Virus record (IMG/VR): IMGVR_UViG_3300009514_001427
DNA length: 64,000 nt
Source: a virus
Reading direction: 5' to 3' (one strand)
The first letter of the stretch is position 1. Every line of letters starts with the position of its first letter. Below are positions 16,458 to 16,899 of the stretch, one piece after another. Under the pieces are notes generated by a model. That model saw only the letters and a program-made list of their open reading frames with translations, made no database searches and was not told the DNA's origin. The position numbers and the translations under genes are program-made.

Positions 16458-16673
16458 CTATTTACGAGCACTTTGGGTCTGGTTTTCTTTACGTAGTTCT
16501 TTCTCTCTATCGCGCTTGATCTTGCGTTTGATTCTACTACGCTCTTCCGAGGGCGGCTCGTAGTAGGCTTTGCGCTTCATTTCTTTCATAACACCCTCCT
16601 TTTCAAGCAATTTCCTAAATCGCCGAAGGGTTTGTTGGATTTTTTCTCCGCGCCTTGGAGTAATTTTAACCAT
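16458..16673 (-). CDS. rpsU: ribosomal protein bS21
   Basis: ...[36 protein letters not shown]... aligns with E. coli S21 [34 protein letters not shown]. Confidence 0.85.
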
Positions 16674-16899
16674 TAGTGTTTTCCTTTGGTACTACGACTA
16701 CGTTTTTAGCCTTTTTGCCACGGTCTCCACTACTTTCTTCGAACTCGACATGCTGACCGTCGATCAGGGTTTTGTATTCACCCTCTTCGCCAGTGATGTC
16801 ACTGTAGTGTACAAATACATCCGAACCGCCGCCTTCTGGCACAATAAAGCCAAATCCTTTCGACTTGTCAAACCACTTAACTAGACCTTTCTTTTTCAC
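16666..16899 (-). CDS. cspA: cold-shock protein (CspA family)
   Basis: [15 protein letters not shown]...DVFVHYSDI...GQHVEF matches CSD RNP1/RNP2 motifs; overlaps rpsU start by 8 nt. Confidence 0.9.

What the first reader, a model, noticed from the sequence alone, without database searches (positions are those of the whole stretch)
16458..16899. Coupled cold-shock protein and ribosomal protein S21 genes
cspA-like (16899 to 16666) and rpsU-like (16673 to 16458) overlap by 8 nt on the minus strand. Both identifications are strong from sequence. Phage-encoded bS21 is known, but here it is paired with an RNA chaperone. This suggests the phage is remodelling translation initiation. RF1 and the tRNA island sit elsewhere in the window.
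Basis: partly seen in the sequence, partly recalled or inferred. Interest (0 to 1): 0.5.

Follow-up and report, generated by a model that had tools for sequence, protein, structure and literature searches.

The report
Phage cold-shock protein and S21 operon
A probable giant bacteriophage carries a cold-shock RNA chaperone gene fused end-to-start with a ribosomal protein S21 gene. The pair is old and conserved in its relatives and resembles known bacterial cold-shock operons, so it is a modest new variant, not a new kind of system.

Summary
A 77-aa cold-shock-domain gene (16666-16899, minus) and a 71-aa bS21 gene (16458-16673, minus) overlap by 8 nt (ATGGTTAA). Both pass curated family cut-offs.

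- **Conservation:** The pair recurs in 14 distinct metagenomic loci. These share about 20 kb of synteny with the window and sit on contigs of up to 256 kb as fetched (cluster tables list up to 557-581 kb). The gene junction is -8 to +12 nt in 13 of them.
- **Age:** Silent sites are saturated while proteins stay 61-88% identical, so these are not recent host pickups.
- **Origin of S21:** The S21 clade is monophyletic (100/100) and sister to Planctomycetota (Phycisphaerae-type) S21. None of about 148 cellular rpsU loci has a csp neighbour.
- **Order of events:** csp was inserted into an older module (ADP-ribosylglycohydrolase, small ORF, S21) and lost again in one lineage.
- **Expression signals:** A conserved sigma-70-like promoter and an extended Shine-Dalgarno sequence (TAAGGAG) precede the unit.

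Co-expression is well supported. A joint role in translation initiation is inferred only.

Bacterial precedents exist (the S. meliloti cspA-rpsU and Anabaena rbpA-rpsU operons), and phage bS21 and phage Csp are each already known. Phage identity is likely but not proven, because I found no capsid or terminase gene.

The parts
17182..17209 (-). Sigma-70-like promoter (TTGACT, 16 nt, TATAAT; 11 of 12 matches) upstream of the small ORF. Proposed start of the transcription unit.
   Evidence: Found by the scan. Relatives carry an equivalent TTGAC(T/C)-16-(CG)TATAAT at the same place: L166 and L168/L169 score 11/12, L001 scores 9/12, and L002, L165 and L090 carry weaker versions. Function is inferred.
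17238..17292 (-). Inverted repeat (10-nt perfect arms, 35-nt spacer) between the ADP-ribosylglycohydrolase stop and the promoter. Possibly a terminator or boundary of the upstream unit.
   Evidence: Relatives L002 and L166 have hairpin plus T-run sequences at the same place (read by eye). Function is inferred.
16962..17165 (-). Conserved 67-aa ORF of unknown function ([12 protein letters not shown]...); first gene of the unit.
   Evidence: It has 12 homologues at 58-100% identity, all metagenomic. It is present upstream of csp, or of S21, in every clade locus examined. No Pfam or PHROG hit. The AlphaFold model has pLDDT 71 with three strands and a helix. No fold match below E=1.
16909..16915 (-). 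Extended Shine-Dalgarno sequence TAAGGAG, ending 9 nt before the csp GTG start codon.
   Evidence: The duplex energy with the canonical anti-SD is -8.7 kcal/mol, among the strongest in the window. ACACTAAGGAG or a close variant is kept upstream of csp in L001, L002, L086, L087 and L089.
16666..16899 (-). Cold-shock-domain protein gene (77 aa, GTG start). RNP1 (KGFGFI) and RNP2 (VFVHY) motifs are intact.
   Evidence: It has 31 homologues, and those at 68% identity or more are from the same element clade. pN is 0.09-0.31 against pS of 0.76-0.94.
16681..16686 (-). Internal Shine-Dalgarno-like AAGGAA inside the 3' end of csp, 7 nt before the rpsU ATG.
   Evidence: -5.6 kcal/mol. Relatives have AAGGA or CAGGA at the same position.
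16666..16673 (-). The 8-nt overlap ATGGTTAA (rpsU start inside the csp stop region); proposed site of translational coupling.
   Evidence: The junction in 14 distinct loci is -8, -8, +2, -1, -8, +2, +67, 0, +2, +1, -1, +12, -8 and -4 nt.
16458..16673 (-). Ribosomal protein bS21 gene (71 aa), full length.
   Evidence: It has 45 homologues at 61-100% identity. pN is 0.17-0.30 against pS of 0.80-1.00. The clade is monophyletic in 100 of 100 bootstraps.
16080..16448 (-). 122-aa ORF of unknown function, 9 nt downstream of rpsU with its own TAGGAG. Probably co-transcribed.
   Evidence: Homologues follow S21 in L002, L086 and L093, and similar-sized ORFs (105-118 aa) follow it in L166 and L167. It is absent or replaced in L001, L165 and L168. 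No family hit.
14894..16045 (-). Subtilisin-like S8 peptidase gene (383 aa), last same-strand gene before the convergent plus-strand block. Possibly the end of the unit.
   Evidence: Pfam Peptidase_S8, 6.5e-59. Syntenic in L002, L086 and L165. No minus-strand terminator-like site was found between 15900 and 18400.
17301..18185 (-). ADP-ribosylglycohydrolase gene (294 aa), the conserved upstream neighbour. Part of the older ARH, small ORF, S21 module.
   Evidence: Pfam ADP_ribosyl_GH, 4.5e-39. It is present upstream in every related locus, including those without csp: L090, L092, L170 and L171.

Best explanation
The two genes are the core of a small, conserved expression unit. Its order is: sigma-70-like promoter, 67-aa ORF, csp, rpsU, 122-aa ORF, and probably the S8 protease. 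The unit sits in a clade of very large, phage-like genomes from sediments and groundwater.

**Shown**
- Both proteins are intact family members under strong purifying selection.
- The csp stop and the rpsU start are kept within a few nucleotides of each other across genomes whose silent sites are saturated.
- The S21 lineage is a single old acquisition related to Planctomycetota (Phycisphaerae-type) bS21.
- The cellular relatives of this S21 have no csp next to rpsU.
- csp was inserted into an older ARH, small ORF, S21 module and was lost once.

**Inferred**
- Host RNA polymerase transcribes the unit from the sigma-70-like promoter.
- Ribosomes load at the strong extended Shine-Dalgarno sequence (UAAGGAG) of csp. 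After terminating at the csp UAA they re-initiate at the overlapping rpsU AUG, so the two proteins are made together.
- The phage bS21 enters host 30S subunits at the platform next to the anti-SD and mRNA exit site.
- The Csp keeps mRNA 5' regions unstructured.
- Together they sustain or bias translation initiation during infection, probably in cold habitats.

This would be a convergent copy of the bacterial cspA-rpsU and rbpA-rpsU cold-regulated operons.

The confidence of 0.6 is for the whole statement. The shown steps alone I would put at about 0.85 and the inferred joint function at about 0.4.
For: **Identity**
- Family and structure-database matches.

**Conservation of the pair**
- The pair is present in the window plus L001, L002, L085-L089, L093-L095, L165, L166 and L168.
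- Every Csp homologue whose context I looked up had S21 immediately downstream.
- The junction is -8 to +12 nt in 13 of 14 loci.

**Selection**
- pN is 0.09-0.31 while pS is 0.76-1.00 for both genes.

**Origin**
- Clade monophyly is 100/100. It is sister to Phycisphaerae-type S21 in 72/100 and lies within Planctomycetota in 74/100.
- An index-free HMMER scan of 1.84 billion representatives shows a score gap, from 96-77 bits for the clade to 59 bits or less. Most of the next 147 hits are closest to the Planctomycetota-labelled S21s.
- None of 80 genome loci and none of 68 further metagenome loci with S21 at 60% identity or less has csp nearby.

**Polarity of the csp insertion**
- L170 and L171 (S21 56% identical) and L090 and L092 have ARH, small ORF and S21 without csp.
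- L090 and L092 nest inside the csp-bearing clade. The csp-bearing loci are monophyletic in only 11 of 200 bootstraps.

**Expression signals**
- Promoter.
- Shine-Dalgarno sequences.

**Phage-like context**
- 16 scattered tRNA genes.
- HNH endonucleases and PHROG hits in the window.
- Flanks of relatives hit T4-type Srd anti-sigma factor, sigma-70 decoy, endonuclease VII and dNMP kinase families.
- A 572-aa protein is shared with roughly 250-kb Vibrio phages.
- About 20 kb of synteny across the loci.

**Precedents for the function**
- Cold-regulated cspA-rpsU (S. meliloti) and rbpA-rpsU (Anabaena) operons, as summarised in PMC4424878.
Against: - I have no expression, ribosome-binding or temperature data, so the joint function is inference.
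- csp was lost in the L090/L092 lineage and is absent from the outgroup L170/L171. S21 therefore does not need Csp.
- One locus (L088) has a 67-nt spacer.
- The csp leader is only 62 nt and folds no better than shuffled sequence. No Rfam element, including the cspA thermoregulator, was found. There is no sign of CspA-type cold sensing.
- I found no capsid, portal or terminase gene in the 64-kb window or in the flanks of relatives.
- Chen et al. 2022 (PMC9723584) found phage bS21 near structural genes and tied to late replication. That is a different context from this one.
- The trees are neighbour-joining trees on 65 and 365 columns.
- The labelled cellular set was collected with patterns derived from the clade itself, which biases it.
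Confidence: 0.6

Rival explanations
1. The pair is co-located but functionally independent. The two small 'host-takeover' genes merely share a promoter and timing. Csp acts as a general RNA chaperone, a transcription antiterminator or a counter-defence factor. S21 acts separately on ribosomes, or not at all.
For: - csp is dispensable for S21. L090, L092, L170 and L171 keep ARH, small ORF and S21 without it.
- The best NCBIfam matches of the Csp are to antiterminator-type CspE and CspC.
- Csp genes occur alone in many phage records in INPHARED (71 records).
- Phage genes are often packed with overlapping stops and starts, whatever their function.
Against: - The junction stays at 12 nt or less in 13 of 14 loci although silent sites are saturated.
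- No clade Csp was found away from S21.
- Chaperone-rpsU operons evolved independently in two bacterial groups, which suggests a functional reason for the pairing.
Confidence: 0.3
2. The pair is a recent capture of a ready-made bacterial csp-rpsU operon from the host. In that case it would be a conventional passenger.
For: The gene order csp then rpsU is that of the S. meliloti cold-shock operon. The S21 is clearly of bacterial (Planctomycetota-like) ancestry.
Against: - None of about 148 cellular rpsU loci related to this S21 has a csp within the fetched flanks.
- The element clade is monophyletic (100/100) and only 42-52% identical to the nearest cellular S21s over the trimmed alignment.
- Silent sites are saturated between clade members.
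- Outgroup elements have the same locus without csp. S21 and csp therefore arrived separately.
Confidence: 0.03
3. The window is not a phage. It is part of a bacterial chromosome, a megaplasmid or another giant extrachromosomal element (or a eukaryotic giant virus). The pair would then be ordinary cellular translation genes.
For: - I found no capsid, portal or terminase gene.
- The window carries metabolic genes: GlnA, FolD and a PurN-like formyltransferase.
- It carries a major-vault-protein-like gene.
- One relative is deposited under an archaeal MAG name.
- Many relatives come from the Loki's Castle metagenome, which also yielded giant eukaryotic viruses.
Against: - Most ORFs have no family hit, and several HNH endonucleases and 16 scattered tRNA genes are present.
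- Flanks of relatives hit T4-type families: Srd anti-sigma factor, sigma-70 decoy, endonuclease VII and dNMP kinase.
- A protein is shared with jumbo Vibrio phages.
- The rpsU loci of real Planctomycetota chromosomes (contigs of 2.4-4.3 Mb) are different and far more distant.
- Shine-Dalgarno enrichment and 4- to 8-nt gene overlaps argue against a eukaryotic virus.
Confidence: 0.08

Closest known systems
Sinorhizobium meliloti cspA-rpsU cold-shock operon (O'Connell & Thomashow 2000, PMID 10618253; cited in PMC3557214 and PMC4424878)
   Same: A CspA-family gene lies directly upstream of rpsU on the same strand and is expressed as one unit. The proposed rationale is extra S21 plus an RNA chaperone to keep translation initiation going.
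   Different: - That operon is chromosomal and alphaproteobacterial; this one is in a phage-like element whose S21 is of Planctomycetota type.
- This pair was assembled independently, by insertion of csp into an ARH, small ORF, S21 module.
- This pair has an 8-nt overlap and a short 62-nt leader with no detectable cold-sensing structure.
- Cold induction is untested here.
- I could not read the original paper, only citations of it.
Anabaena variabilis rbpA-rpsU cold-regulated operon (Sato 1994; Sato et al. 1997; summarised in PMC4424878)
   Same: An RNA-binding chaperone gene is co-transcribed with rpsU, and S21 levels are higher at low temperature.
   Different: The chaperone there is an RRM-type Rbp protein, not a cold-shock domain. 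The setting is cellular, not viral.
Phage-encoded bS21 (Mizuno et al. 2019, PMC6375957; Chen et al. 2022, PMC9723584)
   Same: A full-length bS21 gene of host-phylum ancestry carried by large phages, thought to take part in or redirect host translation.
   Different: - In those studies the common neighbours are prohead protease, major capsid protein, Hsp20 and Clp proteases, and expression tracks late replication. Neither text mentions a cold-shock protein.
- Here the neighbours are ARH, a small ORF and Csp behind a sigma-70-like promoter.
- This S21 found no relative in INPHARED or IMG/VR at the sensitivity used.
Phage-encoded cold-shock proteins (PHROG 729)
   Same: A single-domain Csp with intact RNP motifs in a phage genome.
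   Different: The known examples (Streptomyces, Escherichia, Listeria, Staphylococcus and other phage records) are 60.9% identical or less. None of those records gave an S21 match to this query.
Flavobacterial rpsU autoregulation through an extended Shine-Dalgarno sequence (PMC9976891)
   Same: A strong extended Shine-Dalgarno sequence governs synthesis of bS21. bS21 itself sits beside the anti-SD.
   Different: - Here the extended Shine-Dalgarno sequence is on csp, and rpsU is coupled to it.
- Window genes use Shine-Dalgarno motifs fairly often, unlike Bacteroidia.
- Any feedback loop is pure speculation.

Membership tests
Ribosomal protein bS21 (Pfam PF01165 / TIGR00030) | Score above the curated family cut-offs | tested here: met
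   PF01165: 49.1 bits against a cut-off of 27. TIGR00030 equivalog: 45.1 bits against 28.95.
Ribosomal protein bS21 (Pfam PF01165 / TIGR00030) | Full-length collinear alignment with bS21 chains seen in solved ribosomes | tested here: met
   Residues 1-66 align with 8fmw_U and residues 4-66 with E. coli bS21 (10fz_U and 365 entries). The LRRF(K/R)K, EKxG and YExPS motifs are kept.
Ribosomal protein bS21 (Pfam PF01165 / TIGR00030) | Incorporation into the 30S subunit | not testable with these tools
   Needs biochemistry or cryo-EM of infected cells.
Cold-shock domain proteins (Pfam PF00313) | Score above the curated cut-off, and RNP1 and RNP2 nucleic-acid-binding motifs present | tested here: met
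   86.9 bits against a cut-off of 27. KGFGFI and VFVHY are read directly in the translation. The best PDB matches are bacterial Csps at 1e-19 to 1e-20.
Specific E. coli-type Csp orthologues (CspA, CspE, CspC, CspD equivalogs, NCBIfam) | Score above the equivalog cut-off | tested here: not met
   The best match is CspE at 89.9 bits against a cut-off of 120. All others are also below their cut-offs. It is a Csp-family member only, not an orthologue of a named paralogue.
Cold-inducible cspA-type genes | Long structured 5' UTR, thermosensor or cold box | tested here: not met
   The leader is 62 nt. Folding z-scores range from -2.1 to +0.6, and seven of the eight loci lie between -1.0 and +0.6. No Rfam hit in 14500-18600 at E of 1 or less.
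Bacterial csp-rpsU cold-shock operon (S. meliloti type) | csp immediately upstream of rpsU on the same strand, with no terminator between | tested here: met
   8-nt overlap. No minus-strand terminator-like site in the region.
Bacterial csp-rpsU cold-shock operon (S. meliloti type) | Descent of the pair as a unit from a cellular operon | tested here: not met
   None of about 148 related cellular rpsU loci has csp. The outgroup elements lack csp at the same locus. Limitation: alphaproteobacterial S21 sequences were not in the tree.
Bacterial csp-rpsU cold-shock operon (S. meliloti type) | Induction by cold | not testable with these tools
   Needs transcript data. The only hint is habitat: deep-sea sediment, marine sediment and contigs named Hain-H43.
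Phage-encoded bS21 (auxiliary translation gene of large phages) | The carrier genome is a bacteriophage | tested here: inconclusive
   PHROG hits to T4-type regulators and nucleases, scattered tRNA genes and similarity to a jumbo Vibrio phage protein. No capsid, portal or terminase gene in the sequence available.
Phage-encoded bS21 (auxiliary translation gene of large phages) | bS21 located among core structural genes, as in Chen et al. 2022 | tested here: not met
   The neighbours are ARH, a small ORF, Csp, a 122-aa ORF and an S8 protease, not the prohead protease or major capsid protein described in PMC9723584.

The most novel reading that the evidence does not exclude
The small ORF, Csp and phage bS21 may form a dedicated initiation-specificity module. 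In this reading the phage bS21 replaces host bS21 on Planctomycetota 30S subunits, and the co-made Csp delivers or unfolds phage mRNA leaders at the same platform site. The extended Shine-Dalgarno sequence on csp plus coupling to rpsU would give a feedback loop, like rpsU autoregulation in Flavobacteria. Chaperone-bS21 coupling would then be a convergent general solution for initiation in the cold, now used by a virus. The conserved ADP-ribosylglycohydrolase next door could belong to the same translation-protecting function, for example by reversing ADP-ribosylation of ribosomal components or mRNA by the host.
Probability: 0.12. Interest if true: 0.7.

Novelty: new variant of a known kind. Interest (0 to 1): 0.36.

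Why it matters
Phage bS21 is the most common virus-encoded ribosomal protein, yet what it does is still unknown. This clade offers a natural experiment. The same S21 locus exists with an overlapping RNA-chaperone gene, without it (outgroup), and after losing it.

The arrangement mirrors two independently evolved bacterial cold-regulated chaperone-rpsU operons. That suggests bS21 and single-strand RNA chaperones act on the same step of translation initiation.

The pair also points to Planctomycetota (Phycisphaerae-like) bacteria as hosts of a little-known group of very large phages in cold sediments.

The value is as a testable lead. It is not a new mechanism, because each component and the operon type already have precedents.

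Tried and rejected
**Searches that found nothing**
1. INPHARED phages: no DNA match for 14000-20000 and no tblastn match for S21. An IMG/VR pattern scan for S21 found no confirmed relative. The clade is therefore absent from those collections at that sensitivity. Distant phage S21s would not be found by this query, so I cannot say that no catalogued phage has csp next to S21.
2. Exact look-up of the window's own S21 product found no contig on record.

**The csp leader**
3. I looked for a cspA-like structured leader or conserved RNA upstream of csp. Small hairpins exist, but their energies equal those of shuffled sequence. The upstream alignment conserves only ACACTAAGGAG, and there is no Rfam hit. 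Rejected.
4. I asked whether ACACTAAGGAG or AACACTAA is a window-wide regulatory motif. It is not enriched: 7 matches against 13 expected, and 3 against 1.7. Rejected.

**Phage hallmark genes**
5. I ran Pfam and PHROG on about 80 window ORFs and 43 ORFs from the flanks of relatives. None of the Pfam tables, the per-protein PHROG table or the 25 most-matched PHROG families listed was a capsid, portal or terminase family. The bulk PHROG outputs listed only 25 of 54 and 25 of 35 matched families, so one among the unlisted families cannot be excluded.

**Other checks**
6. Function of the 67-aa ORF: no family hit, a moderate AlphaFold model (pLDDT 71) and no fold match with E below 1. Unresolved.
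7. Naming the nearest non-clade S21 representatives through cluster look-up gave no organism names. I compared them instead with the labelled genome set, which is a biased reference.
8. Alternative genetic code as the reason for the in-frame TGA in the RF1-like gene: all three stop codons terminate genes in the window. Rejected.
9. The original S. meliloti paper (PMC91835) is not held, so I cite it only through papers that cite it.
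Full report
**Observation**

The minus strand carries a 77-aa ORF (16666..16899, GTG start) and a 71-aa ORF (16458..16673, ATG start). They overlap by 8 nt in ATGGTTAA.

- The first ORF is a cold-shock-domain protein. Pfam CSD gives 8.3e-25 and 86.9 bits against a cut-off of 27; PHROG 729 also matches. The RNP1 (KGFGFI) and RNP2 (VFVHY) motifs are intact.
- It does not reach any NCBIfam equivalog cut-off. The best match is CspE at 89.9 bits against 120.
- The second ORF is bS21. PF01165 gives 49.1 bits against 27, and TIGR00030 gives 45.1 against 28.95; PHROG 21469 also matches.
- S21 aligns over its full length with bS21 chains from solved ribosomes.

**What the window is**

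- No DNA or S21 match exists in INPHARED or IMG/VR.
- About 80 ORFs include an SNF2 helicase, GlnA, FolD, a PurN-like formyltransferase and AAA ATPases.
- They also include a subtilase, an ADP-ribosylglycohydrolase (ARH), HNH endonucleases, a 3808-aa protein and a major-vault-protein-like protein.
- I found no capsid, portal or terminase gene.
- A 572-aa protein has relatives only in roughly 250-kb Vibrio phages and a few others.
- Flanks of related loci hit PHROGs for the T4-type Srd anti-sigma factor, a sigma-70 decoy, endonuclease VII and dNMP kinase.
- Genes show Shine-Dalgarno enrichment: 30% carry a motif against 7% of control positions, and 49% against 15% reach a duplex energy of -4.5 kcal/mol or lower. 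All three stop codons are in use.

I read this as a non-structural region of a very large bacteriophage. That remains an inference.

**Relatives and conservation**

The S21 has 45 homologues at 61-100% identity, all metagenomic. The cluster tables list contigs of up to 557 and 581 kb for them. The Csp has 31 homologues, many on the same contigs.

Context look-ups and a metagenome scan gave 14 distinct loci with csp directly upstream of rpsU. These are the window, L001, L002, L085-L089, L093-L095, L165, L166 and L168.

- Many come from the Loki's Castle deep-sea sediment assembly SDBT01. Others come from marine sediment and other samples.
- The loci share about 20 kb of gene order with the window: FolD, GlnA, formyltransferase, a size-variable giant protein, ARH, small ORF, Csp, S21, a 122-aa ORF and the S8 protease. 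Protein identity is 40-79%.
- The csp-stop to rpsU-start distance is -8, -8, +2, -1, -8, +2, +67, 0, +2, +1, -1, +12, -8 and -4 nt.
- Against the window, pN is 0.09-0.31 for csp and 0.17-0.30 for rpsU. pS is 0.76-1.00, which is saturated.

Both genes are therefore under strong purifying selection, and the arrangement is old.

**Origin**

A scan of 185,579 species genomes with the S21 alignment returned 80 loci.

- Almost all are Planctomycetota MAGs or chromosomes (Phycisphaerae, 'Planctomycetales' and others). Seven MAGs are labelled Anaerolineales.
- Identity over the N-terminal 36-72 residues is 50-60% for most of them and 35-49% for about a dozen more distant ones (Planctomycetia, Brocadiia, Nitrospirota and others).
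- None has a csp within 3 kb. None of 68 further metagenomic loci with S21 at 60% identity or less has one either.

Neighbour-joining trees give the following:

- The element clade is monophyletic in 100 of 100 bootstraps.
- It is sister to the Phycisphaerae-type group in 72 of 100.
- It lies inside Planctomycetota in 74 of 100.
- Identity to that group is 42-52% over the trimmed alignment.

An index-free HMMER scan of 1.84 billion representatives shows the same discreteness. The clade scores 96-77 bits, then the scores drop to 59 bits or less. Of the next 147 hits, 133 are closest to the Planctomycetota-type or Anaerolineales-labelled sequences. That labelled set is biased by how it was collected.

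**Order of events**

- The nearest outgroup S21 (P0077, 56% identical, on contigs of 218-295 kb) sits in an ARH, small ORF, S21 arrangement without csp.
- L090 and L092 (contigs named Hain-H43) have ARH, the homologous small ORF and S21, also without csp.
- In an ARH plus S21 tree rooted on the outgroup, L090 and L092 nest inside the csp-bearing loci. The csp-bearing loci are monophyletic in only 11 of 200 bootstraps.

The most parsimonious reading is an old ARH, small ORF, S21 module, a single insertion of csp directly in front of rpsU, and one later loss.

**Expression signals**

- A sigma-70-like promoter (TTGACT, 16 nt, TATAAT; 11 of 12) lies at 17209-17182, just upstream of the small ORF. 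Equivalent sites, often with CGTATAAT, recur at the same place in relatives.
- An inverted repeat (17238-17292) separates it from the ARH gene.
- csp has an extended Shine-Dalgarno sequence, TAAGGAG, at -8.7 kcal/mol. It is conserved as ACACTAAGGAG in several relatives.
- An AAGGAA inside the csp 3' end lies 7 nt before the rpsU ATG.
- No minus-strand terminator-like site occurs in 15900-18400.
- The 62-nt csp leader shows no significant structure and no Rfam match.

**Mechanism**

Shown:
- A conserved same-strand unit in which csp and rpsU are physically coupled.

Inferred:
- Transcription by host RNA polymerase.
- Ribosome loading at the csp Shine-Dalgarno sequence, and termination-reinitiation at AUGGUUAA, giving co-production.
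- Phage bS21 joining host 30S platforms next to the anti-SD and mRNA exit, while Csp keeps mRNA 5' regions single-stranded.
- Together, sustaining or biasing initiation, plausibly in cold habitats.

Two bacterial precedents make this reasonable. One is the cold-shock cspA-rpsU operon of S. meliloti. The other is the cold-regulated rbpA-rpsU operon of Anabaena, where S21 rises at low temperature (PMC4424878; reference also in PMC3557214).

Against a strict functional dependence, csp is absent from the outgroup and was lost once.

**Comparison with what is known**

- Phage bS21 is well documented (PMC6375957, PMC9723584). Those papers report structural-gene, Hsp20 and Clp neighbours and late expression, and do not mention cold-shock proteins.
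- Phage Csps are known too (PHROG 729; 71 INPHARED records).
- The new points are the conserved, overlapping Csp-bS21 unit in a phage-like lineage, its independent assembly, and its Planctomycetota-type ancestry.

I class this as a new variant of a known kind.

**Verdict**

The finding is real and more than chance. It is not a recent host pickup. It is functionally suggestive but conventional in its parts. Interest is moderate to low (0.36). The main open points are proof of phage identity, proof of co-translation, and any evidence that the two proteins act together.

Noticed in passing
window 63320-64000 (minus strand): An RF1-like gene (PxT-type PPT motif and a GGQ motif; Pfam RF-1 1.1e-25 and PCRF 3.7e-12) has an in-frame TGA at 63893-63895. 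If the ATG at the window edge is its start, it lacks the N-terminal domain. All three stop codons terminate genes elsewhere in the window (TAA 27, TGA 17, TAG 17). It is therefore either a pseudogene, a sequencing error or a programmed read-through. A UGA inside a factor that does not read UGA is curious.
   Followed up: partly
window 48132-50759 (minus strand): An 875-aa protein matches major vault protein domains: MVP_shoulder 1.7e-23, Vault_3 1.7e-09 and Vault repeat 3.5e-04. It has a strong Shine-Dalgarno sequence. A vault-like protein in a phage-like genome is unusual.
   Followed up: no
window 17301-18185, and L001, L002, L090, L092, L165, L166, L168, L170, L171: An ADP-ribosylglycohydrolase followed by a small ORF lies upstream of S21 in every related locus, including those without csp. 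It is the oldest conserved partner of this S21. A link between reversing ADP-ribosylation and translation is conceivable but untested.
   Followed up: partly
window 18530-29956 (minus strand): This is a 3808-aa ORF with a Laminin_G_3 domain. ORFs at the corresponding position in relatives that match part of it are only 233-1024 aa, so the gene has expanded or contracted enormously.
   Followed up: no
window 38324-62781 (minus strand): Sixteen tRNA genes, all on the minus strand, are scattered singly or in pairs among ORFs. They include 4 Ser, 3 Arg, 3 Pro and 2 Thr. None has a suppressor anticodon.
   Followed up: no
L168 1215-2465 and L169 1482-2684: An IS605 OrfB / TnpB (Cas12f-like) gene is inserted just upstream of the ARH gene in two relatives. 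Another relative's flank hits transposase PHROGs.
   Followed up: no
window 16962-17165; protein P0235: The source's gene caller started the small ORF at an internal Met (55 aa). Homologues conserve the upstream [12 protein letters not shown], so the 67-aa form is correct.
   Followed up: yes
protein P0007 and locus L001: One related S21 is deposited as '30S ribosomal protein S21 [Promethearchaeota archaeon]', with a 557-kb contig listed for its cluster. bS21 is bacterial and the locus is syntenic with this window. The contig is probably a mis-binned phage-like element in an Asgard MAG.
   Followed up: partly
window 57166-58767 and 58774-60390 (plus strand): Two adjacent ORFs of about 535 aa have near-identical upstream sequences (CAATGTTAATGCGGGGTAAAGAATA and CAATGTTAATACAGGATAGGCGAAA). 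This suggests a tandem duplication. Neither has a family hit. A 750-aa relative occurs in L001.
   Followed up: no
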